Shown here one piece after another: positions 9,696 through 36,457 of a stretch of DNA of 64,000 nt. Numbering within the stretch: the first letter of the stretch is position 1; each line of letters starts with the position of its first letter. The notes below the pieces were generated by a model that saw only the letters and a list, made by a program, of their open reading frames with translations, had not been told where the DNA came from and did no database searches. The translations under genes and the position numbers were made by a program. The stretch is taken from IMG/VR virus record IMGVR_UViG_3300032240_002419, positions 1,803 through 65,802 of that record, one strand, 5' to 3'. The DNA is from a virus (lineage: Duplodnaviria; Caudoviricetes).

Positions 9696-9725
9696 TTGCA
9701 CTTTTTAAAAACATTTGTGTAGGGT
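9696..9725 (+). promoter_or_regulatory. putative promoter for ncRNA candidate
   Basis: TTGCAC-N18-TAGGGT, back-to-back with minus-strand TTGACA at 9681-9686. Confidence 0.4.
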
Positions 9726-9900: not shown

Positions 9901-9977
9901 ATAGGGACGGATTTTACAAAACCTATACTTTTGAGGGCGATAGACGGCCGATTGATTCGATCTATTCGATGCCACGG

Positions 9978-10451
9978 TAGGGGGAGTGAGGGGGAGTGAA
10001 GCTTGTTATATTCATTGTTAAATTGTCACCCTGCATCCCTGTTTCAGAAATTAGTGGTTCTTGAATATAATATTTTTAATGTTATATTTTTTGTTATAAA
10101 AATTTCAGTTTGGATTGAAGAAAGGGTATTTAACGTATTTAATGGCCCTTATTTAGGTGAGTGAGATTTCAGGGGGAGTCAAAATCGGGCTTCACTCCCC
10201 CAAGTTAAGTGGCTCAGGACGACAGGGTTACAACGAAAAAGTGAGTAGGGGGAGTGAAGGGAGTGTTTTTTAAACGCACCCATTATATAGCATGGTGCAT
10301 ATACCATATACCCTATATATCTATCTTTATATTAATTTTAAAAATACACTCCCCTCACTCCCCCTATCAATATAAATATCTGTAAAATCAACAACTTAAC
10401 TTGGGGGAGTGAGATTTTTTTTCACTCCCCCTCACTCCCCCCACTCCCCCT
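9978..10451. repeat. nested inverted repeats of GGGGGAGTGA around AT-rich DNA; probable replication origin
   Basis: Perfect 21-bp IR 9980-10000/10421-10441, 19-bp IR 10192-10210/10394-10412, imperfect IR ~10246-10274/10338-10367; AT-rich spacers. Confidence 0.7.
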
Positions 10452-10705
10452 AACGGGTCTTTGGCTTGTGTTTTACTCTGTTAACCGAGTCCCTTGACGT
10501 TCTGTTACCCTGATCCCTGTCAAAAATTACGGTGGTTCCTTGTTACAGGGTCGCAGGGTCGCAGGGTTACCCTGAGATGCCCCGCCTTAACGCGCTATAG
10601 GGCCTGTGGCTTCGTTTTGTTGTTTTTGCGACCCGTTGTGGCCGAACAAGGTTTTTGGGCAAAATTTTTTGCAGCAGGGGGGAATATCGACTTACGCTCC
10701 CGCGA

Positions 10706-10733
10706 CCCCCGCCCACCCCCGCACCCCACCCCC
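10706..10733 (-). other. G-quadruplex-capable tract near putative genome terminus/pac
   Basis: Minus strand GGGGG-T-GGGG-TGC-GGGGG-T-GGG-C-GGGGG. Confidence 0.45.
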
Positions 10734-10892
10734 GGGTGCTCACGCGCATTATGCGCAAGCGCATCACGCCCACGTGACGCGAGCGTAACGCGACCCCAGA
10801 GCGAAGCTCTGACTTCGGCAAGGTTGGGCAAGGTTGGCCATAAAGGGTATCGACGGCATCGACCGATCGAAACTGATCTTTCACATTACACG

Positions 10893-11220
10893 GCGGTCGG
10901 ACAGAGCAAGTCTGACCACAGGAGCTACGTAACCAATAACAGGTAGCCTCCGAACCCTAGCCGGAGAATAGGGTGACAAGTGGGGGGTAGTCTGGCATGA
11001 ACCGGATGACTTCCACTAGTGGAAATCTCGTAATACAGGAAGGGCTTCCTGTAATCCGCTTTGCGGAGCCAAGAAAAAGATACGCTTTGCGTCATCTGGC
11101 TAAAACAGGAAGCCCCTTTCCTACGGAACCTTCCTTCTCTGCAACCTGTCCACAATCGACGCTTGCTCCTTCGGAGCATGTGGGAAACTGGTGGTGGGTA
11201 GGTAATCAGAGAAAGGAAAC
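10893..11220 (+). ncRNA. candidate ~330-nt highly structured early leader RNA
   Basis: Many consecutive helices; 11131-11141 pairs with 11207-11218 covering the AAAGGA RBS; boxA-like GATCTTTCACA at 10875. Confidence 0.6.
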
Positions 11221-11224
11221 ATAC

Positions 11225-11659
11225 ATGAACGCATCAACCAATGCAGTCGCAGTCGTCAACAGCCTCAACACCCGTGCTTTGCTCCGCAAAGATGGAGAAG
11301 TCCGTGGCACTCGCTACACCTTCGGTGGAACCGAGACTCCTTCGGAACTCCGCAAGCGACTCAAGGAATCCGGGCTGAAGGGGAACAAGCTGTCCACGGC
11401 TGTCCGTGAAGTGCAGATGGGCAAGCTCCACGCCTCCTTTGTGGAGACCCAAGCCTTCGTGGAATACATGCGGAAGGAAGGTTTCATCCCTGCTGGTGGT
11501 CAGATCACCGCAAGGGCTGGCAAGATTGACTTCGTCAAGATGACTGGCGGAGCCAAGACCGCCAAGACGGAATCCCAGATCCGCGAAGCTGCGGTCGCCG
11601 ATATTTTGGCGAAGCTCCGTGCTCTCGGACTCGACGAAGCAACCCTTGCTTCCCTGTAA
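11225..11659 (+). CDS. hypothetical basic early protein
   Basis: ATG 11225 after AAAGGA SD; codon usage like the other early genes. Confidence 0.75.
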   Translation: MNASTNAVAVVNSLNTRALLRKDGEVRGTRYTFGGTETPSELRKRLKESGLKGNKLSTAVREVQMGKLHASFVETQAFVEYMRKEGFIPAGGQITARAGKIDFVKMTGGAKTAKTESQIREAAVADILAKLRALGLDEATLASL

Positions 11660-11673
11660 GGGAATTGACACTC

Positions 11674-11699
11674 GGCCCCTCTCCTTTCGGAGGGGGGTC
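11674..11699 (+). terminator. GC-rich hairpin after first early gene
   Basis: GGCCCCTCTCC-TTTC-GGAGGGGGGTC; no U-tract, so terminator role uncertain. Confidence 0.35.
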
Positions 11700-11722
11700 G
11701 CAGTCAGTTCACCCATACCCAC

Positions 11723-11998
11723 ATGACAACACCTACACCCAAACCCGTTCGGTCGTGGTGGAACTCGCACATCAAGTGCGATTCCCACGGCAAGTATGAT
11801 CCCGTCTTTGACGGGGACTGGTCATTCAAACAGACCTGCAAGTTTCATCGGATCAAGGAGAAGCTACCCGATCCCAAGCTCCAACGTCTCAAGCTAGTGC
11901 TTCGCCTAGCTGAAGCGGACAAAGACCGACCTGCATGGCAGGCTTCCGAGAAGGAACGCCTTATTGCAAAGTATCGGGAGCTGGTTCGGAGTCGTTGA
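11723..11998 (+). CDS. hypothetical protein
   Basis: 91-aa ORF after CCCATACCCAC leader. Confidence 0.6.
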   Translation: MTTPTPKPVRSWWNSHIKCDSHGKYDPVFDGDWSFKQTCKFHRIKEKLPDPKLQRLKLVLRLAEADKDRPAWQASEKERLIAKYRELVRSR

Positions 11999-12569
11999 CG
12001 GGTTGGCTACCCGACTCCAACTCCTGAACATCCTCGGAGGGTGACGCATCGGTGACACATTCACCCTCGATGATGTCATCTTGGACGTTTGCTCGGAGAC
12101 GATCGTTGACCACCTGCAGTTGCACAATCGTATTGTGTTTCGCCTCGCCGTCATCGAGTCCGAGCACTCGCCGCATCATCTTGTCCGCTATGTCAAAGTC
12201 TTTCCAAGTCCGAGGCGGAGCGATAACGGTCTGCGACAGAATCTTAAAGAGTTTGTCCGCCGACTTATGTCGGTATTGTTTAGCTATCTCATCCAAGTCT
12301 GTCGATGTAGCGACGGAGTTTTGAGGGGCTTTTGCCTCATTAAGCTGATCAATTAGAGACTGGTTCTGTGCGACCCTGCTATTGTGCAACCCTGCAACCT
12401 TGTTCAACCGATTCTGAACACGCTTCGGAGTGTTCCAGTTTTCTCTGTTGCTCCGCATCCTAACAGCGGCTTCAGAGATGCCGAACAACTTGGCAACCTC
12501 CCTCTGGGAAGTTCCCTTTTCACAGCTTTCGCGGATCTTATCCCACGGAACGTCAAGAGCTTTCGGCAT
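11961..12569 (-). CDS. terminase small subunit-like HTH protein
   Basis: WDKIRESCEKGTSQREVAKLFGISEAAVRMRSNRENW N-terminal HTH, RRVLGLD, acidic tail; typical TerS architecture. Confidence 0.6.
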   Translation of the reverse strand: MPKALDVPWDKIRESCEKGTSQREVAKLFGISEAAVRMRSNRENWNTPKRVQNRLNKVAGLHNSRVAQNQSLIDQLNEAKAPQNSVATSTDLDEIAKQYRHKSADKLFKILSQTVIAPPRTWKDFDIADKMMRRVLGLDDGEAKHNTIVQLQVVNDRLRANVQDDIIEGECVTDASPSEDVQELESGSQPVNDSEPAPDTLQ

Positions 12570-27601: not shown

Positions 27602-30600
27602 TTATCCGTTAATCTTGAGTTTTCCCGTCAACACGTCGCGTTCGACCTTTGCTTTGGCATAGGCCGTAGCGGCGTGATTGATGCTGGGACCGTCCAGTAT
27701 GGACTGAGCCAGATCCCTATCCATCTGGGTCAGCCTTTGAACGAGCTGTGGAGTAAGAATCTTCTTCAGCAGCTCACCCCTGTAGATAACGAACTGACGC
27801 CATGCGGCGTCTCCTGAATCGTTCAGGGTCTTATACTCGCCCTTCTTGTTTACGAGAATTTCCGTGGACTTCTTAGGTCCAGACAGGAACAGCCCATGAT
27901 CCAGCAGAGGATTGAGGATAGGGTCAGGGGGTGCCTGAGCCACAAACAGCCACCTGTCCGTTAGCGGATCGGTTGCGGCGTGAGTGATCGGGTTCCCCAA
28001 GATGTTGAGGGAAGGCTGGTTGTAACCCAGATAGAAGGGCATGAACTGCGCCGCTTTGCCAGCCGCCGAGGTAAGGTCAAGGTTATTGACTTCGCGCCCC
28101 GTTCCTTGGGTGGCGATCGAGTTGCGGATAAACCGCATGATCTGAGGATTGGTAAACTGGCTGGCTGTTCCGGCTAGCTGCTTGACAACCGCTTTGGGGG
28201 CCGAAGCACCCTGAGGGTCGTGCAGCACGTCGATAAGATTCTTTGCTCCGCTAAGGAAGTGATGCTCCAGAGGGCTCATGGCCACTCCGAGCGCCATCCT
28301 CCAGATAGCGTCTCCAGCATAAACATCCGGCCTCTGAATTACTCCGTGAACCTTCTTAATTGCCGGAGCGTCAAAAGTCATGTAGTCGTGCAGGGTACCC
28401 AGCATGGTTCCCAGCAAATCAACTCCGGGCATAGCCTTGTACGGGATGTAGGTGTCCCCAATCTTGAGAGTATTGGGACGTGCTCCCGAGGCCATCCACT
28501 CGCTGCGCTTGGCGTAGTCTTTGGGACCCGCCCCGTAGAACATGAAATCGGGTTTCTTGCCCGTTTCCATTTCGTCGTGCAGCTGCTTCAGGAACCAAGC
28601 GGTAATGGCCGTGGCTACCACGGTTCCAAAGGCAGACTTGGCCATGAGAGCGTACTGATCGGCCGACCCTTCCACGTATTTACCAAACGCGTATTTGGAG
28701 TCTTCTCCCAGCAAAAGATTGGACAGGGTGCGATTCTTGGCTTTGGCAAATCCGAGCGGGCTATAGTCCAAGCTGTTATTCATCAGGTTGCTGATGATCC
28801 TGACGAATGGGAAGATGAACTGAGTAACCTTAGTCTTGCGGTTCAGGGTCCCGATGATTCCGTCGGCCACCATTCCCGCCAGTCCTTTGGCGTCGCCCTT
28901 GAGGGTCCAATCCTTAGTCAGCTTGTCAATCCGCTCTCCCTTGAGAAGATCCATAAGATCCTTGCCTGTGGAGATCTCTTGGTGCAACTGCTCAAGGCGG
29001 TTGGCCATAGAGAACTTGTTGTCCCACTTGCCCATGTTCTCAAAGAATCCGGAATCAACTTCTTTCTGAAGCTGCTCCCTTGCCGCAGCCATCTCTTCTT
29101 GTGTGGGGGCAAAGACAGTCCTCATCCTCTCGGCGAGTTCCTTTCCTTTGATTCCGCCGTTCAGGAGGGCCGCTCTCATGGCCATGCGTTGATTGAGTTC
29201 CCTAGCGGAGTTCGCGTTAAGAGCGTCAAAGGCAGACATGAACCTAGGTAGAATCGCCATGGCCCCGGCATACTTCTGGAACCACTTAGGACCTACCCCT
29301 TCTTTCAGGAGGTCCGCTCCGCGCTTTCCAATTCCCTGCTCCAGACCGATACCAATCTGTCCCGTGGTAAGAGCACGGAGAGCCTCGCGTCCAAACGGGT
29401 TACCTCTTGCGCCCTTGTCGCCCAGCAACATGGTATCCAAGAAATCTTTCAGGTATCCCACGCTCTCTTGGAACGAGTTACCTTTACCCACAGACTCAAC
29501 GAATTGACCGAAGGTTTGGAAAGCACCCTGCAACCGGACGTTGACGAATCCGCTGAAGCCGTGCGTCAGGAACGTCGGGGGCCCGGTAAGAATCGCGGAC
29601 CGGAAGATTTCAGGTAGAATGTTAAAGGCTGCCTTGGCTGCCTGTACCCCACCGGCTTTGAGCTGCTGGTTGATGATCTCGTTTGCGATCATTCCTTGGA
29701 AGTTGGTCAGCTGCACGTTGCGCTGATCGCTGTTCTCAGGGAGTTTCATGATTTCATCAGCTTTCTCCCTGACCGCTTTTACAAAGTCTGCATCGTAACC
29801 TCCAATTCCTAGGCTCTCCAATAGGGTTTGATGAATATTGTCTTCGTCAAACTTGCCTAATTTAATGTACTCTTCCAGCTTCTTTGCCATCTCAACGGGC
29901 TTTACGGCACCCTTGGTGGCGTAGGCTTCAAACACGGCTTTGGGCAGGTCAGTCGCAGCGATCTTTTGAACCGCCTTGTTGAACAGTCCGGCTAAGTTTC
30001 CGGTGAGAGACTCGACGGTCTCCGGAGGAGCTCCCTCGGGGAGCATCTGAGCAATGAAAGCCTTCAGGTCGCTACGGTTAAACTCGTTACCGGAAAGCAA
30101 CTGAGTCAGCTGTGAGATCTGCTCCGGGTCGGTGATTCCCGATTTAGACAGGAGATCAGAAGCCGCCTTCATTGTGGCTTCCGCAGCCCTGAGTTTGATG
30201 GACGTGATGCTGTCCATGAGGCCCTGCAGATTGATCTTGCCCTTGGTAAGATCTTCCACGCTTCCGCCTAGGGTTCCCTTAAGGAACTGGTCGACGTAGT
30301 CTCTTGAAGACAGCTCGTCGATATTCTTGCCGGTATTAAGCACCTGTCCGCTGGCGCTCAAGGTTTTCACAGATAGGTTATGAGCCTCGATATTCAGCCT
30401 GTTGGCCTTTTTCAGCTCTAAGCCCTCGGCTATTGACAGAGGCCCCGTGCTCTTTTTATCCAACAAGTCCTGAACCACCTTTTGATATTCTCTCTCGGCG
30501 CGGATAAATCCACGATTGATAGCCGCCAACGAGTATTCTGCGTTGGGGTTAGACAGCATTTTCTTCAAACTATCATAAGCCGCATCAGTACCAACCTTCT

Positions 30601-33600
30601 TAAACAGGTCGTCCATTTGAGCGTCCCACTTGGGATTTGATCCCGTCTCGTATTGGTTCGGAGCGTAGGCAGCCCGGTTTTCTTCAGTAAGGTACTGTTG
30701 ATCACCCTCACGGGCGGTAGATTCTTTTGTGGCAGGAGATTGGGCACGGAGTTCTCCCTCGTTCTCACGAGTAGCCGGGGTCATGCCAATAAGTTCATTC
30801 AACCATGCCTCATCTTCTGGAGACGTTTTTGTTTTCGGAGCTACTCTTTTCGTCCCAAGATTTTGTTTTATCTCTGCATACGTTTCCGGAAAAACCAAGC
30901 TCAACGCTTGTCTGGCCGCAATGTTTGATTCTATACGAATGGCCATCGCCATCCTTTCCACGCTCGAATAGTCTTCGTTGTTTTTAACGTAATCCCAAAT
31001 CTTTTTGTAATTTTGAGTTTTGATGGACTCGTTTTTGAACCCCTCGCGTTGTACGTTGAAATTACTTGCCAAATTGTACAGGATTTCAAAGGTAACCCTA
31101 CCGTACTTAGGGTAATCGGTCATTGCCCGCTTCATTAAAGTAGTCCGTAAAGAAGAAGGAAGATTTGGATTTTGAGTTAAGAAAGTATCAATGATCGGGT
31201 TATTTAAATCTGCAAATGCTTTATAGTTACCGGCTCGATCCTGCCCCAGCTCATCTTCCAAAATTTTTCGCAGTTCGCGTCCTTCACTTTCGTTCTCCAA
31301 ATAGGGCATTCCCTTTTCTTCGATCTTTGTCGGATCGAATTCCGGATTTCTTTCAACAAGCTGTTTGGCTATTTTTTGAATTCTTTCCGGGGAAGTTGAA
31401 GGATTTTTCAATTCAAACAGCTCGTAGTTCTTAAGCTGATCGCGTCGCGCGTCGAGCAATTTTGAAATGTCCTGACTGTACTCTTCCGGAATCGTCCCGT
31501 TGTTTGCTTTACCCTGTATCTCTGCAATCTTGCCGCCGTCAATTATGCGAATAGCAGCAGCGGGTCTGTCGCCATGGGTGAGTATCCACATGCCCCCCTC
31601 CTTAAGATACGGCTCAGCGTTATAAGTTTTTGTGCACCAGTTGTCGTGCGAAAGAGATTTTAGATTGTCGACATTGGTTTGAAAATTTTGAGGATCTTCC
31701 GATCGGGAAGGTATGTAAATCCACTCTCTATTTTCTGTAGCTTTTACCGTATCGGCAGCATTTTTAATGGCGTAGTCCGCAAGACTTTTTCGGTACGCTT
31801 TCAGAAGATCAAAATTTTGATCCTTAGGATGTAAAGCGACTTGTTCCCTCAAACGAGCTAAAACACCCGGGTTTAGCGGCAGAGTCTCGCCAGCTCCGTA
31901 AGCTCGGTCAGAAGACAAAGCATTGTAGAGCATCTCGTGAACCATAGCCTGCCAATAGGGATCTTTAGCGTATTCTTGATTCCCTTCCGTTAAATAATTT
32001 TTCCATACGGAATAGTTTTCTTCACGCTCTTCGGAAACTTTTTTGGCCATCTGACTGGCTTTAAGTTTTTGCGCTTCTTCACTATCGGACAGGAACCTAC
32101 GGGCTGCTTCCCCTCCCTGTCCTGCATTATCTTGATTAGCGTATGCTTCCTTAACCAAGATAGCCGCCATATCATCAATCGATATTACTAACTTGTTTTG
32201 AGTCTTAGAAACGATTCCGTTAACGATTGAATCAATCTGCTCAGGCAGGTTTTTTTTATTTAGGTCAATCAGCTTTTCGTATTTCTCCACAAACAGGCGA
32301 CCAGTATCGCTTTCGCCCAATCCCATCTTGACAGCCTTCTTGTATGCAGCCTGAGCAAATAGCGACCACCGCTTGGGGTTGCTGCTAATTTCTCGGGTTT
32401 TGTTGGACAGCATGTTGTAGCTCTTTTCGGCAAAATCCAACTGACCGGAAAGCGTAGCATCTTCTGGAGCATACCGTAGTTTTGCTTGCAGCCAGCGCGT
32501 GATGTTTTTGATGTAGTCCATCAGAGCACCAAGGATGCTAGGATTGCGATCCACTTCACGCATCACTTCGGTGGTGTGCCCCATACGCATCATCTGACGC
32601 AGCATACGGGTATACTCCCAGCCAACTTGGAAATTGCTCTTCAGGAAGAAATTGATCCGGTCATTGCTCGCGTTCTTACCCAAGTAGAATCTGGCGAGCT
32701 TTAGCTTCTCTTCGTTGGATAGCTTGGCTCCGATTTCCGTTAAACGATCCTGAGCTTCAGGGCTGAACGTTCCGGTCTCGTCGATGACGCCAGCGATGTG
32801 CTCTACCTCTTCGTCACAGGCAGCCTCGATGTATTTACGAGCCTGCTCTTCGGTCATTCCACGAATCTGATTTTCCAACAGGTTCACATCGTACCGTACT
32901 CCAAACGAATTGTCGGCTGTGTTGATGTGGGCCTCCATGACTCCGGCCGTTTCTCCGGGTTTGGCTCCGGCGTTCATGTCCGGGTCGGCGTAGAACTCTA
33001 CCCCGGGGAACCGGTCTTGTAGGGTGGACCGGATATACTCGTGGGCGTCCATCGGAATCTCTCCCTCGGTCTTGGCCGTAGCCATGCGGGCAGAGCGAGC
33101 TCCAATGTCGGCCCTCTCGTGCAGTCCGTCGAGAATCTGGTCAACGGTAAAGCGATCGGCAATACGGGTCGCTTGGCTTACCAGCGCCTTACGCTCCCGT
33201 TCCGGAATGTCAGAGAATTGTGCAGCCAAACGAACGACGTCCTCGGCACTCAATTCCTTGGCCTCTACCAAGGCTCGCAGTAAGGCAACCTTGTCGACGA
33301 GTTTTGTATCGGCAGCTTCAATCTTCTTAACTGCCTGATCCTTGAGTCGGGAAGCGATAGCCTCCGCAGTCTCTACGGAGACTTCGCCGGGAAGACGATC
33401 TTCGGTGGGTTTGAAAACTTCTTCGCTGTCTTCAGGCGCAATTCCGCTCTCGGCAAAGTGATCTTGAAATTCCGTACCGGATTCCCCAAGCGGAGCATTC
33501 AGAGAGACAGTGGCAGTACCTCCGGTCTTCATGCGCCTACGAATTTCGTCTATTTCGCTCTTTGATTTACGTAGGGCTTTGTTGACCTCTTTCTGAAAAG

Positions 33601-36457
33601 CGGGACCGTCTTCGATCTTTGCGAGGAATCCTTCTTTCTCTCCGCGCATCTCCTGAGCGACTCGGCCCATGAACTCGGTGATTGCACCCCAGCGCATGGC
33701 ATACTGAGCGTCGTCATCATATCCCCGATAAAGATCCAGCGGGGGGAAGCTCCTCAGTCGGGAGATATTTTTGTCGCCCTCGGGGTTCTCATAGACTCCG
33801 TATTCTTCTTCGGAGAAAGGGGTCTCCTCTCCCCGCTTGCCTTGACTCGGAAGGGCGGGTTCCTCTTCTTCAATCTTTCCTTCACGGATGGCTTTCTCAC
33901 GAGCTTCGCGTAGGCGGTCTTCGCGTTCGATTTCTTGCTCTACCTTGCCCTTGCGGTTCTGAGTCCTTTTCTTAGCTTCCTCGGATTGAGTGAGCTCGCG
34001 TTCTAGAGTACCCCCTAACCGGGTAGTCAATGCATTGTTCAGCCTGATCAGAATCTGGTTAAAGGGCGTTTTCTGCTCGGGGGGAAGGGAATTTACAATC
34101 GCGTTGTAGGTGTCCGTGGACTCCTTGAGATAAGCGGAAGGACTGAGGCGATTGGTCTGGGAATAGATCCTGTCGGCCTCGGTTCGGTTTTCTACGTTCC
34201 GCTTGTACCACAGCAAAGCGTTTTCGAGCCGGTCAGTCGGCATCGGGTTCTCAGCCATGACGCTTCCCGGATCGGGGTTGGTCTGAGTACTGATCGTTCC
34301 CTTGTCGGTTTTGCGATTCTTGCCCGTCTTCTTGAGGTATTTATTAATGAAGGTGGCAATCTGCTGCTGGCTGAAATTTCCGTTCTGGCCGGTGGGTTTG
34401 ATTTTTCTAGCCTCGATAACGGCGTCAAACTTGGAAGGACGAACAATAAACTGACCGGACTCCGGATCGTACTCGAACGAGATTGCGGGATTGAATTGCT
34501 GCGGATCGTCCATGTTGACGAATCTCGGTACAACTGTGTCTTCGCCCCGGAGCTGACGAATCTCAAGAGCTTGAGGATCATTGATCCAGTTCTCGATGTG
34601 ACCCAGATCCTCTTTGGCTTTAACAGGATTTTTAAGGTACTCGTTGGAGTAGTCCCACAGGTCCTTAAGTCTCGGCGCGATCTCTTCTCCAAATGCAGCT
34701 CGCATCCTATCCGACCAAGCGGCGAAATCCGTGACTCCATCATTTATGAGCTTGGCTCCCTGAATCGAAAGGCCCAGATCTTTCTTAAGTCCAGCGCGGG
34801 GATCTTCTTCGGCCTTGGTTGCCGGGGATTTGGCAGCCAATTCGGTAGTGCCTCCCAGTAGATCGTCACCCAGCTTAAATAGGTCATCGAGGTCCTGCTT
34901 CTGGGGAACGGCGGGCTCTTCTGTAGCGATAGGTGCCTCGGTCGAGATGGGCTCCTCTGCAGGCATTGCTTCACCATTCTGGACCCGTGCAATTCTTTGA
35001 CGAATGCTGTCGGCTAGTTTAGCGGCATCGGATTTGGTCTTGGCGTTGCCCCTCTGCTGTCGAATTCTTGTCTCCAAAAGGAGCTCGTTTAGTTTGTCAA
35101 CATTCCCTGCCTTTTCAGCCTCGACCGCCTGAGCCTGAAGTTGAGGAATCGCCGTCCGTACGTGTTGACGATTGCGCTGCTTGTAGTCTTCAGCAACAAG
35201 CTGTTTCTCGCCGTCGATCGGTTGAGGGGCCTCAACAATCGGAGCGGTAGCAGCTTCAACTTTTTCGGTTTGTTCTGCAGCAGGGGTCTCGGTAACACCC
35301 GGCGCAACCTGTTGGATCGGCTCGGCGGGCGAAGATTCCAAAGGGAGCGGTAGTTGCTCCTCTTTAGCTGGTTCGGCTTCGGTTACCGGCTTTTGTCCCT
35401 TTTGCAACTCTGGCAGCACGCCGGTTTGCTCGACATTCGGCTCAACCGCGATTGGTTCGCTGACGGCTGGCGTTGTGCCTGCAGTGCTTGGCGTAATGGG
35501 TTCTTGCTCTGGGGTTTTTTCATTGACTGCTGGGGTTGTGGGTTTGGTTGCTTGTAGCGCATCTGCGGTCTCGCTTGCCCCGGAGCTGCGTAAAGTTTCA
35601 TCCAATTTCTGACTGGCTTCTTCGGAGACAATGTCCGGAACTTCGGGTTCGGGAGCAGTCTTCTTCTGGGGTTTGTTAAAAGTCGTTGGCGTCTGAGTCT
35701 GCTGCTCGGAAGCCTTAAACGGATCGAGGAACATGCCGCCCGGACCAACATACGGCTTGACGGCCATTCCTGCGGCCCCCTTCAGGGCTGCGGTGCCAAG
35801 GTCTTCTCCTTGTGCAACCCCCATGCCTGTCTGGGTTCCGATAGCGGCCGTCCCCCCGATTGCATGACCAAAGTTCTCCAGAGCTTCTTTTGCGGCTTTG
35901 CCCTCTGGGGTAGCTTGTTGAGACAGCGTTTGTAATTCCTTGACGCCGCCTTTCTTGGCCATGGCTGCCGCGACATCCTTGATACCCTGTCTCCCTGCAG
36001 TCGTGCCAACCGCTTTCACTAAACCGCCAGCCGCTTTCAGGCTGGGTCGGCCCGTGCCAAGCAAGCCTCCGGCAAACGTTGCCCAAGGATGTTCCTTCTC
36101 CTCCTTTTCGGCCGTTTCGGTACCGAGGAAAGATTCCGGAGCGTACTTGTTTGCAAGAATATCTTGTCCTTTGCGAGCCGCCATGCCTGCTCCGAAAGCA
36201 CCCGCAACACCCAGCACCGGAACAGCGATGGGAGCTAAGGGTCCGGCCGCTAGTCCAAGAGAGCCCATCGCAAGTGCTCCCCCCATTCCGGCAACTCCGG
36301 GAACAACGCTACGGCCCGCTTCGTGAAGTAGCGCCGTTCCAGCGGAAGTGGGCGCTTCGGGTTCGGGAGAACTGTACGTCTCCTCCCATGGCATTTTGTT
36401 AGAAGGGGTTGCCTCTGGGGAGGCATACTCTTCTTCCCAAGGCATTTTGTCGGACAT
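27602..36457 (-). CDS. giant internal virion/ejection polyvalent protein (2951 aa)
   Basis: MPWEE repeats and Gly/Ala hydrophobic N-terminus, PcfJ-like WC module, helical C-terminal region; end of structural operon. Confidence 0.8.
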   Translation of the reverse strand: MSDKMPWEEEYASPEATPSNKMPWEETYSSPEPEAPTSAGTALLHEAGRSVVPGVAGMGGALAMGSLGLAAGPLAPIAVPVLGVAGAFGAGMAARKGQDILANKYAPESFLGTETAEKEEKEHPWATFAGGLLGTGRPSLKAAGGLVKAVGTTAGRQGIKDVAAAMAKKGGVKELQTLSQQATPEGKAAKEALENFGHAIGGTAAIGTQTGMGVAQGEDLGTAALKGAAGMAVKPYVGPGGMFLDPFKASEQQTQTPTTFNKPQKKTAPEPEVPDIVSEEASQKLDETLRSSGASETADALQATKPTTPAVNEKTPEQEPITPSTAGTTPAVSEPIAVEPNVEQTGVLPELQKGQKPVTEAEPAKEEQLPLPLESSPAEPIQQVAPGVTETPAAEQTEKVEAATAPIVEAPQPIDGEKQLVAEDYKQRNRQHVRTAIPQLQAQAVEAEKAGNVDKLNELLLETRIRQQRGNAKTKSDAAKLADSIRQRIARVQNGEAMPAEEPISTEAPIATEEPAVPQKQDLDDLFKLGDDLLGGTTELAAKSPATKAEEDPRAGLKKDLGLSIQGAKLINDGVTDFAAWSDRMRAAFGEEIAPRLKDLWDYSNEYLKNPVKAKEDLGHIENWINDPQALEIRQLRGEDTVVPRFVNMDDPQQFNPAISFEYDPESGQFIVRPSKFDAVIEARKIKPTGQNGNFSQQQIATFINKYLKKTGKNRKTDKGTISTQTNPDPGSVMAENPMPTDRLENALLWYKRNVENRTEADRIYSQTNRLSPSAYLKESTDTYNAIVNSLPPEQKTPFNQILIRLNNALTTRLGGTLERELTQSEEAKKRTQNRKGKVEQEIEREDRLREAREKAIREGKIEEEEPALPSQGKRGEETPFSEEEYGVYENPEGDKNISRLRSFPPLDLYRGYDDDAQYAMRWGAITEFMGRVAQEMRGEKEGFLAKIEDGPAFQKEVNKALRKSKSEIDEIRRRMKTGGTATVSLNAPLGESGTEFQDHFAESGIAPEDSEEVFKPTEDRLPGEVSVETAEAIASRLKDQAVKKIEAADTKLVDKVALLRALVEAKELSAEDVVRLAAQFSDIPERERKALVSQATRIADRFTVDQILDGLHERADIGARSARMATAKTEGEIPMDAHEYIRSTLQDRFPGVEFYADPDMNAGAKPGETAGVMEAHINTADNSFGVRYDVNLLENQIRGMTEEQARKYIEAACDEEVEHIAGVIDETGTFSPEAQDRLTEIGAKLSNEEKLKLARFYLGKNASNDRINFFLKSNFQVGWEYTRMLRQMMRMGHTTEVMREVDRNPSILGALMDYIKNITRWLQAKLRYAPEDATLSGQLDFAEKSYNMLSNKTREISSNPKRWSLFAQAAYKKAVKMGLGESDTGRLFVEKYEKLIDLNKKNLPEQIDSIVNGIVSKTQNKLVISIDDMAAILVKEAYANQDNAGQGGEAARRFLSDSEEAQKLKASQMAKKVSEEREENYSVWKNYLTEGNQEYAKDPYWQAMVHEMLYNALSSDRAYGAGETLPLNPGVLARLREQVALHPKDQNFDLLKAYRKSLADYAIKNAADTVKATENREWIYIPSRSEDPQNFQTNVDNLKSLSHDNWCTKTYNAEPYLKEGGMWILTHGDRPAAAIRIIDGGKIAEIQGKANNGTIPEEYSQDISKLLDARRDQLKNYELFELKNPSTSPERIQKIAKQLVERNPEFDPTKIEEKGMPYLENESEGRELRKILEDELGQDRAGNYKAFADLNNPIIDTFLTQNPNLPSSLRTTLMKRAMTDYPKYGRVTFEILYNLASNFNVQREGFKNESIKTQNYKKIWDYVKNNEDYSSVERMAMAIRIESNIAARQALSLVFPETYAEIKQNLGTKRVAPKTKTSPEDEAWLNELIGMTPATRENEGELRAQSPATKESTAREGDQQYLTEENRAAYAPNQYETGSNPKWDAQMDDLFKKVGTDAAYDSLKKMLSNPNAEYSLAAINRGFIRAEREYQKVVQDLLDKKSTGPLSIAEGLELKKANRLNIEAHNLSVKTLSASGQVLNTGKNIDELSSRDYVDQFLKGTLGGSVEDLTKGKINLQGLMDSITSIKLRAAEATMKAASDLLSKSGITDPEQISQLTQLLSGNEFNRSDLKAFIAQMLPEGAPPETVESLTGNLAGLFNKAVQKIAATDLPKAVFEAYATKGAVKPVEMAKKLEEYIKLGKFDEDNIHQTLLESLGIGGYDADFVKAVREKADEIMKLPENSDQRNVQLTNFQGMIANEIINQQLKAGGVQAAKAAFNILPEIFRSAILTGPPTFLTHGFSGFVNVRLQGAFQTFGQFVESVGKGNSFQESVGYLKDFLDTMLLGDKGARGNPFGREALRALTTGQIGIGLEQGIGKRGADLLKEGVGPKWFQKYAGAMAILPRFMSAFDALNANSARELNQRMAMRAALLNGGIKGKELAERMRTVFAPTQEEMAAAREQLQKEVDSGFFENMGKWDNKFSMANRLEQLHQEISTGKDLMDLLKGERIDKLTKDWTLKGDAKGLAGMVADGIIGTLNRKTKVTQFIFPFVRIISNLMNNSLDYSPLGFAKAKNRTLSNLLLGEDSKYAFGKYVEGSADQYALMAKSAFGTVVATAITAWFLKQLHDEMETGKKPDFMFYGAGPKDYAKRSEWMASGARPNTLKIGDTYIPYKAMPGVDLLGTMLGTLHDYMTFDAPAIKKVHGVIQRPDVYAGDAIWRMALGVAMSPLEHHFLSGAKNLIDVLHDPQGASAPKAVVKQLAGTASQFTNPQIMRFIRNSIATQGTGREVNNLDLTSAAGKAAQFMPFYLGYNQPSLNILGNPITHAATDPLTDRWLFVAQAPPDPILNPLLDHGLFLSGPKKSTEILVNKKGEYKTLNDSGDAAWRQFVIYRGELLKKILTPQLVQRLTQMDRDLAQSILDGPSINHAATAYAKAKVERDVLTGKLKING

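What the first reader, a model, noticed from the sequence alone, without database searches (positions are those of the whole stretch)
10873..11227. ~330-nt densely structured leader RNA with mutually exclusive folds that buries the window's clearest SD
Seen: a boxA-like CTGATCTTTCACA, then helices 10895-902/10910-17, 10921-28/10943-51, 10954-59/10969-74 and 10979-86/11010-17. A three-way domain is closed by GGAAGGGCTTCCTGT/ACAGGAAGCCCCTTTCC and holds two CGC-TTT-GCG hairpins. A last domain has TTCCTTCTCTG (11131-41) pairing with CAGAGAAAGGAA (11207-18), sequestering the RBS, plus ACCTGTCCAC/GTGGGTAGGT and TGCTCC-TTC-GGAGCA. Alternative pairings exist (TTCCACTAGTGGAA; TACAGGAAG-GG-CTTCCTGTA). 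It heads a ~16-kb early region. Inference: an undescribed large ncRNA or riboregulator, e.g. a put-like RNA antiterminator, a switch, or an RNA partner of the downstream basic 144-aa protein.
Basis: partly seen in the sequence, partly recalled or inferred. Interest (0 to 1): 0.78.

Follow-up and report, generated by a model that had tools for sequence, protein, structure and literature searches.

The report
Conserved structured leader RNA of phage gene
A folded stretch of RNA in front of one small phage gene is conserved in shape in related uncultivated phages and most likely controls how much of that gene's protein is made.

Summary
The 3' 190 nt (11037-11218) is a real, conserved RNA structure. 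Five distinct phage sequences fold independently into the same architecture: a three-way junction carrying two near-identical hairpins, then a two-helix domain that ends 6 nt before the start codon. 25-26 of 46 pairs show compensatory changes, and 0 of 500 shuffles reach that. No Rfam family matches.

The 5' half (10873-11030) is structured in the window but only partly conserved.

Two context claims fail. The leader heads a two-gene unit, not a 16-kb region, because a highly conserved gene converges at 11961-12569. The "alternative folds" are not conserved and have zero equilibrium probability.

The RNA occurs only with the 144-aa gene: 5 of 5 loci that have the gene, 0 of 4 related loci that lack it. 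The protein is basic and predicted to form a symmetric homodimer.

Best reading: a new cis-acting translational control leader, possibly an operator for its own protein. Function is inferred, not shown.

The parts
10657..10691 (+). Conserved A/T-tract, G-run and TATATA-like box (GGGCAAAATTTTTTGCAGCAGGGGGGAATATCGAC). It is a candidate promoter for the leader transcript. The transcription start is not known.
   Evidence: Conserved in L001, L004, L007 and in L011, which lacks the RNA. It occurs once in the window. It has no sigma-70 spacing, so the promoter role is inference.
10697..10733 (+). C-rich, G-poor tract after the box. It may be the 5' end of the transcript.
   Evidence: Read. C-rich tracts lie at the same place in L001, L004, L007 and L011. 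Function was not tested.
10875..10885 (+). Conserved pyrimidine-rich motif GATCTTTCACA, the 'boxA-like' element.
   Evidence: Counterparts are GTTTTCTCACA (L001), GATCTCTGACA (L004) and GATCTTTGACA (L007). As a boxA match it is at chance level. Its pairing partner is ambiguous: 11020-28, 11226-36, and the G-run near 10980.
10893..11030 (+). 5' domain of the window's leader. It has four hairpins: H1 10895-10917, H2 10921-10951, H3 10954-10974, and H4 10979-11017 with inner hairpin 10990-11007.
   Evidence: MFE and pair probabilities are 0.87-1.00; z = -3.53. Against L007, H1 has 4 compensatory pairs and H2 has 3. H3 and H4 have no alignable counterpart. L001 and L004 carry a longer, different 5' domain.
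11037..11122 (+). Three-way junction. P1 is 11037-11052/11105-11122. P2 is a hairpin at 11056-11066. P3 is 11067-11071/11097-11101, with an A-rich internal loop and hairpin P3a/b at 11079-11096. P2 and P3b are near-identical (CGC-UUU-GCG).
   Evidence: The same architecture appears in the independent folds of 5 of 5 homologues. Covariation is shown. The two loops are identical within a phage in 4 of 5: UUU/UUU in the window and L001, CAU/CAU in L007 and L008, but UAU/CAU in L004.
11131..11218 (+). Start-proximal domain. P4 is 11131-11141/11207-11218; its purine strand holds AAGGAA. P5 is 11144-11153/11194-11203. P6 is a hairpin at 11164-11178. The conserved unpaired GACGC (11158-62) and GGGAAAC (11182-88) lie inside it.
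   Evidence: P4 has 5 of 9 pairs with compensatory changes and P5 has 6 of 10. RACRC and GGGAAAY are conserved in 5 of 5. The domain ends 6 nt before the ATG.
11225..11659 (+). p144, a 144-aa basic protein of unknown fold family. It is the gene the leader precedes.
   Evidence: No Pfam or PHROG family. 112 representatives at E<=1e-3, including 5 long proteins that are repeat-protein false positives. pI 9.99. AF2 pLDDT 90. No PDB or BFVD match at E<=0.001. Homodimer score 0.62 against best control 0.00.
11665..11706 (+). Conserved long hairpin with conserved flanks (TTGACACTCGGC ... GTCGCAGTC), between p144 and the next gene.
   Evidence: Fold of 11520-11725 gives z = -5.46. Counterparts with compensatory changes are read in L004 and L008. 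The motif is unique in the window. Role unknown.
11723..11998 (+). p91, the second and last gene of the unit.
   Evidence: Homologues follow p144 in L002/L003, L007 and L008, but not in L004.
11961..12569 (-). m202, a convergent and highly conserved HTH-like gene that bounds the unit.
   Evidence: 45-75% identity across the loci fetched. Weak HTH and sigma-70 region 4 hits.

Best explanation
The region is the 5' untranslated leader of the p144 mRNA of an uncultivated 66-kb phage with direct terminal repeats. Its 3' 190 nt form a conserved RNA. A three-way junction displays two near-identical 4-6-bp hairpins (GC-YWU-GC). It is followed by a roughly 20-bp two-helix stack (P4+P5) whose purine-rich 3' strand covers positions -7 to about -20 before the start codon. 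Conserved unpaired nucleotides (RACRC, GGGAAAY) lie inside the stack.

I read it as a cis-acting element that sets the translation of p144 by holding the ribosome-landing region in a helix. My preferred trigger is the p144 homodimer binding the twin hairpins and so stabilising the closed form. That would be autogenous control, as with T4 gp32.

Shown: the structure, its conservation, its strand, its position against the start codon, and its exclusive linkage to p144.

Inferred: that it is transcribed as part of the mRNA, that it affects translation, and that p144 binds it.

My odds: conserved structured RNA 0.9; cis translational control 0.5; p144 as the effector 0.3.
For: - Folding beyond chance: z -5.84 for the whole region and -6.22 for the 3' part.
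- Five distinct sequences (window, L001, L004, L007, L008) give the same helices when folded independently.
- On a sequence-only MAFFT alignment, 25 of 46 predicted pairs carry compensatory changes.
- After realignment to the model, 91.2% of 226 cells pair and 26 of 46 pairs have changes on both sides. 0 of 500 shuffles reach any of the five measures. Slid controls pair 39.6-51.9%.
- Strand: 27 of the 226 cells are G-U, which would be mismatches on the other strand (counted). The minus strand folds less well.
- The region is not coding: the in-frame upstream ORF is absent in L001.
- Linkage: model R1 hits all 5 distinct p144 loci at 146-165 bits. It hits none of 4 related loci that keep the neighbour gene m202 but lack p144; the best score there is 11.3 bits with filters off.
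- In L011 the same upstream box and C-rich tract lead into a short leader and an unrelated gene. So the RNA travels with p144, not with the promoter region.
- Twin hairpins have identical loops within a phage in 4 of 5.
- The p144 family is basic: 80 of 84 members have pI > 9.
- Homodimer prediction: median score 0.62, best of 3 controls 0.00. That mark was reached by 20 of 30 solved pairs and by 1 of 23 single chains. The runs agree in at least 97% of contacts, and the partner's pLDDT is at least 74. This supports dimerisation but does not show it.
Against: - There is no expression data, and the 5' end is unknown.
- Only five sequences, and two pairs of them are fairly close.
- Alignment A8 was fitted to the model, so its counts lean towards the structure.
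- A canonical SD is present only in the window and partly in L004. 28 of 31 ORFs of this phage have no SD core. 'SD sequestration' may therefore be the wrong picture, and the helix might be tolerated or even used by the ribosome.
- p144 has no recognisable RNA-binding domain and no fold match. A symmetric dimer fits palindromic DNA just as well, and palindromes lie upstream at 10742-10800.
- A 190-500-nt RNA is much larger than known phage translational operators.
- Whether distant p144 relatives carry the leader could not be tested, because their contigs were not retrievable.
Confidence: 0.5

Rival explanations
1. RNase III processing and activation site. The P4+P5 stack (or P1) is a double-stranded substrate for host RNase III. 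Cleavage would free the start region or stabilise the mRNA, as I recall for the lambda N leader and T7 early mRNAs.
For: P4 plus P5 add up to 19-22 bp, separated by a 2-3-nt internal loop, in 5 of 5 homologues (helix lists). The start codon lies 5-10 nt beyond the stack.
Against: This does not explain the conserved three-way junction, the twin hairpins or the conserved unpaired nucleotides. The host is unknown. No cleavage data exist.
Confidence: 0.13
2. A stable RNA with its own function that merely abuts p144. Examples are an RNP scaffold with p144, a decoy, or a structured ribosome-recruiting element in a phage whose genes mostly lack SD sequences.
For: - The size and complexity are large. 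The L001 and L004 leaders run about 480 nt from the conserved motif to the start codon. They share blocks of 21-27 identical nt although their p144 proteins are only 37% identical.
- 28 of 31 ORFs lack an SD core, and the mean G fraction at -20..-4 is 0.09.
- The RNA co-occurs strictly with p144.
Against: No terminator or processing site separates the RNA from the ORF. The window's own 5' domain lacks the ultra-conserved blocks. There is no evidence that the RNA accumulates.
Confidence: 0.12
3. A metabolite- or ion-sensing riboswitch. Its aptamer would be the P4/P5 domain with its conserved internal-loop nucleotides, and ligand binding would close the helix next to the start codon.
For: Conserved unpaired RACRC and GGGAAAY lie inside a helix-closed domain next to the start codon in 5 of 5. 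The architecture resembles translational OFF switches; that resemblance is recalled, not tested.
Against: p144 has no link to metabolism. The element is confined to one rare phage gene. No known class matches.
Confidence: 0.07
4. A transcription antitermination or anti-Rho element. It would be put-like or boxA/Nus-dependent, and would protect a long untranslated transcript or allow read-through.
For: - A conserved GATCTTTSACA-type motif is present in 4 of 4 full-length leaders. It matches 9 of 11 positions of GYTCTTTAANA, including C4 in 3 of 4. The consensus is taken from passages of bioRxiv 10.1101/091223.
- A C-rich, G-poor tract upstream looks like a Rho loading site, which is inference.
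Against: - The unit has only two genes, bounded by a convergent conserved gene.
- 2-mismatch boxA matches are at chance level (92 found, 102.6 expected).
- The critical C4 is T in L001.
- The motif is paired in the window's folds.
- The host and its boxA are unknown.
Confidence: 0.07
5. A DNA-level element, such as operator palindromes or part of a replication origin, rather than an RNA.
For: The hairpins are DNA palindromes. The region lies 600 nt from an iteron and AT-rich region at 9970-10460. p144 is predicted to be a symmetric dimer.
Against: 27 of 226 paired cells are G-U and work on the + strand only. The + strand folds better than the - strand, -5.84 against -3.38. Long-range helices P1, P4 and P5 span 60-90 nt with compensatory changes, which is not expected of protein-binding DNA sites.
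Confidence: 0.04

Closest known systems
T4 gene 32 autogenous translational operator (abstract of PMC535899 seen in the listing; section 2.6 of PMC10690425 read)
   Same: A structured RNA directly 5' of a phage gene for a small nucleic-acid-binding protein, proposed to be bound by that protein to limit its own translation. The RNA is linked to that one gene.
   Different: The gp32 operator is a small pseudoknot plus an unstructured tract. Here there is a core of at least 190 nt with six or more helices and twin hairpins. p144 is unrelated to gp32 (no family hit), and binding is not shown.
Lambda N leader: nutL plus an RNase III-sensitive hairpin over the N start (recalled, not read here)
   Same: A long structured leader before a small basic first gene downstream of a promoter region. 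The start region lies at the foot of a long irregular helix. A boxA-like motif is present.
   Different: There is no boxB equivalent in the window and no long operon to antiterminate. The boxA match is at chance level. There is no homology.
HK022 put RNAs (recalled, not read here)
   Different: As I recall, put consists of two stem-loops of about 70 nt that act on RNA polymerase to read through terminators of long operons. Here the unit has two genes and the RNA abuts a start codon.
Candidate cis-regulatory structured RNAs of IMG/VR phages (Fremin et al. 2023, PMC10690425; outline and sections 2.1, 2.4, 2.6 read)
   Same: The same kind of evidence (covariation in viral contigs) and the same position (within 25 nt of a start codon).
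   Different: Their motifs are 29-151 nt and required 3 or more IMG/VR regions.
Large ornate RNAs GOLLD, ROOL and OLE (abstract of PMC12286853 seen in the listing)
   Same: A large, multi-domain, phage-associated RNA with highly conserved unpaired blocks in the L001 and L004 versions.
   Different: No Rfam hit to any of them. It is smaller, and it is physically fused to an mRNA start.

Membership tests
Any Rfam 15 family | Covariance-model score at or above the family's gathering threshold | tested here: not met
   0 matches at gathering score in the whole window. At E<=10 in 10400-11700, 5 weak matches were listed, none overlapping the leader 10873-11227. Nothing overlapping the leaders of L001 and L004 or of L007 and L008.
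boxA / Nus-factor site | Match to the boxA consensus GYTCTTTAANA with C at position 4, more often than chance | tested here: inconclusive
   Window and L007 match 9 of 11, L004 and L001 8 of 11. C4 is kept in 3 of 4 (consensus). Matches with 2 mismatches are at chance level in the window (92 against 102.6). The motif is conserved in place, but the host's own boxA is unknown.
boxA / Nus-factor site | Binding of NusB/NusE and an effect on termination | not testable with these tools
   Needs biochemistry or genetics in the unknown host.
put-like processive antiterminator | Sits at the head of a long operon with terminators to be read through | tested here: not met
   Only p144 and p91 follow. The conserved convergent gene m202 lies at 11961-12569.
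put-like processive antiterminator | Direct action of the RNA on RNA polymerase | not testable with these tools
   Needs in vitro transcription.
Autogenous translational operator (gp32-type) | Structured RNA at the start region of the regulator's own gene, co-inherited with it | tested here: met
   The RNA ends 6 nt before the ATG. It is present in 5 of 5 p144 loci and 0 of 4 related loci without p144.
Autogenous translational operator (gp32-type) | The protein binds the RNA and represses translation | not testable with these tools
   Only indirect hints: a basic protein, a predicted symmetric dimer and twin hairpins.
Riboswitch | A conserved aptamer with invariant unpaired nucleotides, coupled to an expression platform | tested here: inconclusive
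   Conserved RACRC and GGGAAAY lie inside the P4/P5 domain next to the start in 5 of 5. No ligand is known and no known class matches.
RNase III-processed leader | About two turns (around 20 bp) of near-continuous helix | tested here: met
   P4+P5 give 19-22 bp in 5 of 5. Cleavage itself is not testable here.

The most novel reading that the evidence does not exclude
The leader is the reduced form of a large, ornate phage RNA. In L001 and L004 it runs about 480 nt and includes 21-27-nt blocks that are identical between phages whose p144 proteins share only 37% identity. On this reading it does more than occlude a start site. It would form a specific RNP with the p144 dimer, or act as a structured ribosome-recruiting platform in a phage-host system that largely does without Shine-Dalgarno sequences.
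Probability: 0.15. Interest if true: 0.8.

Novelty: new member of a known kind. Interest (0 to 1): 0.45.

Why it matters
This would add a well-supported and unusually large cis-regulatory RNA to the short list of phage mRNA leaders with known architecture. It comes with a concrete, testable partner: a basic protein of unknown fold family that is predicted to dimerise and is encoded right behind it.

The twin hairpins, whose loops change together between phages (UUU/UUU against CAU/CAU), offer a simple specificity-swap experiment.

The phage also appears to initiate translation mostly without SD sequences. How a structured leader works in that setting is of wider interest.

Tried and rejected
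**Searches for relatives or known families that found nothing useful**
- Known RNA families: none match.
- tRNA or tmRNA: none in the window.
- blastn of 10400-11700 against GenBank phages: no match.
- DNA-motif scans of viral contigs with three leader motifs found only the contig already known.
- Protein-guided scans:
  - The metagenome scan gave L003 (the same phage as L001) and L004.
  - The genome collection gave nothing with A1.
  - With A5 it gave one 41-residue partial hit in a Prochlorococcus single-cell contig (L009). That locus has no RNA hit and was not followed.
  - A scan with a more distant p144 clade found nothing.
- The word-index search found only 3 proteins. So it remains untested whether distant relatives carry the leader.
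- Five long hits among the 112 are VWA, PPR or ankyrin repeat proteins, which I take to be false positives.

**p144 function**
- No Pfam, PHROG or PDB sequence match.
- No fold match at E<=0.001 in PDB or BFVD.
- The Atlas gave no usable lead; the best feature score was 0.84.

**Expression and promoter**
- No RNA holder is listed for this stretch. The only DNA holder may be the source sample. I therefore did not use read laying.
- Sigma-70 promoter scan: no site on the + strand between 10100 and 11225.
- The conserved upstream box occurs once per genome, so it is not a repeated phage promoter.

**Structure analysis that failed or argued against**
- A four-way alignment of the 5' domains failed (consensus energy -0.1). 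mafft X-INS-i and Q-INS-i are not installed.
- Only the pairwise comparisons L001/L004 and window/L007 were informative.
- The partner of the boxA-like motif stays ambiguous, with three candidates.
- The fixed-frame z-score scan did not single out the leader.

- Supplements of PMC10690425, which list its 8,495 motifs, could not be seen.
Full report
**Where it lies.** The window is bases 1803-65802 of a 65,802-bp virus record with direct terminal repeats. It carries phage genes:
- a family A DNA polymerase and a DUF5906 primase/helicase-like protein
- collagen-like tail fibres and a large terminase

It has no tRNA. The finding sits in a 1.5-kb stretch without conserved ORFs, between two small minus-strand genes (ending at 9701) and a 144-aa ORF at 11225-11659, here called p144.

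**The observation.**
- 10873-11227 folds at -136.9 kcal/mol against -104.8 +/- 5.5 for dinucleotide shuffles. That is z = -5.84, with 0 of 100 shuffles as good.
- The reverse strand gives z = -3.38.
- Taken separately, the 3' part (11031-11227) gives z = -6.22 and the 5' part (10873-11030) gives -3.53.
- The 183 nt upstream give -2.07.
- Against this, a scan with fixed 200-nt frames gave only z -1.2 to -3.1 over the leader. It was more extreme at 11501-11800. So the signal depends on framing the domains.

**Relatives.** p144 has no Pfam or PHROG family. Protein-guided scans found the gene in four other distinct phage sequences:
- L001 (the same phage also as L002, L003, L006 and L015), 63% identity
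- L004, 37% identity
- L007 (also fetched as L010), about 41% identity
- L008 (also fetched as L013), cut by a contig end 240 nt upstream of the gene

Each has a long non-coding stretch before the gene. The in-frame ORF that starts at 10997 in the window has no counterpart in L001, so the region is not coding.

**The conserved core.** Folded one at a time, the five 3' regions give the same set of helices:
- P1, of 9-18 bp, closes a three-way junction.
- P2 is a 4-6-bp hairpin.
- P3 carries an A-rich internal loop and a second hairpin, P3a/b.
- P4, of 9-12 bp, follows directly. Its 3' strand is the purine tract just before the start codon.
- P5 has 10 bp.
- An inner region has a variable hairpin flanked by conserved unpaired RACRC and GGGAAAY.

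The covariation evidence is as follows.
- On a MAFFT alignment made without structure, RNAalifold predicts 46 pairs, and 25 of them have compensatory changes.
- A covariance model built from that alignment (R1) finds each member at 146-165 bits and nothing else in the window.
- On the realigned set, 91.2% of 226 cells pair and 26 of 46 pairs have changes on both sides.
- 0 of 500 column shuffles reach any of the five measures. Sliding the partners by 1-3 columns drops pairing to 39.6-51.9%.
- That alignment is fitted to the model and there are only five sequences, so these figures are strong but not final.
- 27 of the 226 cells are G-U, which points to the + strand RNA.

**The 5' half.** The window's four 5' hairpins are stable, but only partly conserved.
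- Against L007, H1 keeps 4 compensatory pairs and H2 keeps 3. H3 and H4 have no counterpart.
- L001 and L004 have a longer and different 5' domain.
- That domain holds blocks of 21-27 identical nucleotides, plus a 7-bp hairpin with an AAAAA loop that shows compensatory changes.
- These blocks are absent from the window. The window therefore carries a reduced version.
- A four-way alignment could not be made.

**The boxA-like motif.**
- GATCTTTCACA has counterparts at the same relative place in all four full-length leaders.
- It matches 9 of 11 positions of the gammaproteobacterial consensus GYTCTTTAANA (passages of bioRxiv 10.1101/091223).
- Such matches occur at chance frequency in the window: 92 seen, 102.6 expected.
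- L001 lacks the critical C at position 4.
- The motif is base-paired in the window's folds, with three different candidate partners.
- I treat it as a conserved element of unknown role, not as a shown boxA.

**Context.** The claim of a 16-kb early region fails.
- After p144 come a conserved long hairpin (11665-11706) and a 91-aa gene.
- Next comes a minus-strand gene at 11961-12569 (m202, HTH-like). It is the best-conserved gene of the neighbourhood, at 42-75% identity in L002/L003, L004, L007 and L008.
- The leader therefore heads one or two genes.

**Linkage to p144.**
- Using m202 as a handle I fetched four further related phage loci: L011, L012, L014 and L016.
- None encodes a p144 relative. 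tblastn with 84 family members gave 0 hits at E<=1e-3.
- None has the RNA. There were no R1 hits at E<=1, and with filters off the best score is 11.3 bits.
- L011 keeps the upstream A/T-tract and TATATA-like box and the C-rich tract. It then continues into a leader of about 185 nt, an unrelated 135-aa gene and an intrinsic terminator.
- So the box and the C-rich tract belong to the phage group, and may be the promoter region. The structured RNA belongs to p144: 5 of 5 against 0 of 4.

**The start region.**
- Only 3 of 31 ORFs examined have an SD-core 4-mer at -20..-4.
- Mean G content there is 0.09. The usual upstream sequence is C/A-rich.
- Among the five leaders a GGA-type SD is present in the window and partly in L004. 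The others have only a purine tract.
- So the helix covers the ribosome-landing region, but 'burying an SD' is not the conserved feature.

**The protein.**
- The p144 family has 112 representatives at E<=1e-3 in 1.84 billion proteins.
- Five long ones are repeat-protein false positives.
- The family is basic: median pI 9.64, and 80 of 84 members are above 9.
- AlphaFold gives a confident model: pLDDT 90.0, pTM 0.63.
- No match at E<=0.001 turned up in PDB or BFVD, and there is no sequence match to solved structures.
- A homodimer prediction scored 0.62 (median of three runs) against a best control of 0.00. That mark was reached by 20 of 30 solved pairs and by 1 of 23 single chains.
- The runs agree in at least 97% of contacts, and the partner's pLDDT is at least 74.
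- The interface is symmetric, through strand 98-105 and helix 68-85. This supports dimerisation but does not show it.

**Reading.**
- The twin hairpins have a GC-closed stem and a 3-nt loop. The loop is the same in both hairpins of a phage in 4 of 5 cases and differs between phage lineages.
- They look like a pair of sites for a symmetric dimer. The only gene that always travels with them encodes a basic protein predicted to dimerise.
- The junction stacks directly onto the P4/P5 domain, which ends at the start codon.
- My best explanation is autogenous translational control. Its nearest precedent is the T4 gene 32 operator (abstract of PMC535899 seen; section 2.6 of PMC10690425 read).
- The rivals are listed with odds in their own section: RNase III processing, a stand-alone or ribosome-recruiting RNA, a riboswitch, antitermination, and a DNA element.

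**Alternative folds.** I do not think the named alternative folds are functional.
- The local hairpin formed by the 5' strand of P1 is stable only in the window (-9.5 kcal/mol) and L001 (-5.2). It is absent or weak in L004, L007 and L008.
- Both named alternatives have equilibrium probability 0.00.

**Novelty.**
- No Rfam family matches.
- A 2023 survey of IMG/VR predicted 8,495 structured RNA candidates of 29-151 nt (PMC10690425, section 2.1). A piece of this leader could be among them.
- Their lists are in supplements that I could not open.
- I searched papers three times. I saw nothing describing this RNA or p144, but those searches were by general terms and cannot show absence.
- I rate it a new member of a known kind (cis-regulatory phage mRNA leader), of moderate interest.

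Noticed in passing
window 9970-10460: There are about ten copies of a GGGGGAGTGA-type repeat in both orientations, flanking very AT-rich segments. Related phages have a similar layout with different repeat words: ATCCACCA in L007 and GGGGTGGGTG in L011. It looks like a replication origin or a divergent operator region.
   Followed up: partly
window 10657-10733: A conserved box (an A/T tract, a G-run and a TATATA-like hexamer) is followed by a C-rich, G-poor tract whose complement has four G-runs. It is conserved in L001, L004, L007 and in L011, which lacks the RNA. It is a candidate promoter plus either a Rho-loading or a G-quadruplex/i-motif element. It does not have sigma-70 spacing.
   Followed up: partly
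window 10742-10812: This is a cluster of short perfect palindromes (GCGCATTATGCGC, CACGTG) and a hairpin AGAGC-GAA-GCUCU. In L001 the hairpin reads AAGCC-GAA-GGCUU, so both sides have changed. The cluster could be operator DNA for a dimeric protein, or further RNA structure upstream of the stated start of the finding.
   Followed up: no
window 11520-11725: This is the strongest folding signal of the neighbourhood: z -8.1 and -6.3 in the sliding scan, and -5.46 for 11520-11725. It includes a hairpin of about 20 bp at 11665-11706 between p144 and p91. The hairpin has conserved flanks and compensatory changes in L004 and L008, and no U-tract.
   Followed up: partly
window, 31 ORF starts: Most genes have C/A-rich, almost G-free upstream regions such as CCCATACACAC and no SD. 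Only 3 of 31 have an SD-core 4-mer, and 17 of 31 have at most one G at -20..-4. This suggests SD-independent initiation in the unknown host.
   Followed up: partly
window 11961-12569 (-): m202 is an HTH-like protein and the best-conserved gene in this neighbourhood, at 42-75% identity across the related loci. It converges on p144-p91 and overlaps the end of p91 by 38 nt. It has weak hits to sigma-70 region 4 and to small-terminase PHROGs.
   Followed up: partly
L001 2525-2760 and L004 1275-1510: The 5' leader domains share blocks of 21-27 identical nucleotides, although the downstream proteins are only 37% identical. They also share a hairpin with an AAAAA loop that keeps pairing through changes on both sides. 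This part is absent from the window.
   Followed up: partly
window 11059-11073 and 11277-11291: A 15-nt stretch spanning P2 and P3 is 93% complementary to codons 18-22 of p144 (I8). The 12-mer GCGGAGCCAAGA recurs at 11547-11558 (D7).
   Followed up: no
window 27602-36457 (-): A 2,950-aa ORF, the largest in the window, has no Pfam or PHROG match at E<=1e-5.
   Followed up: no
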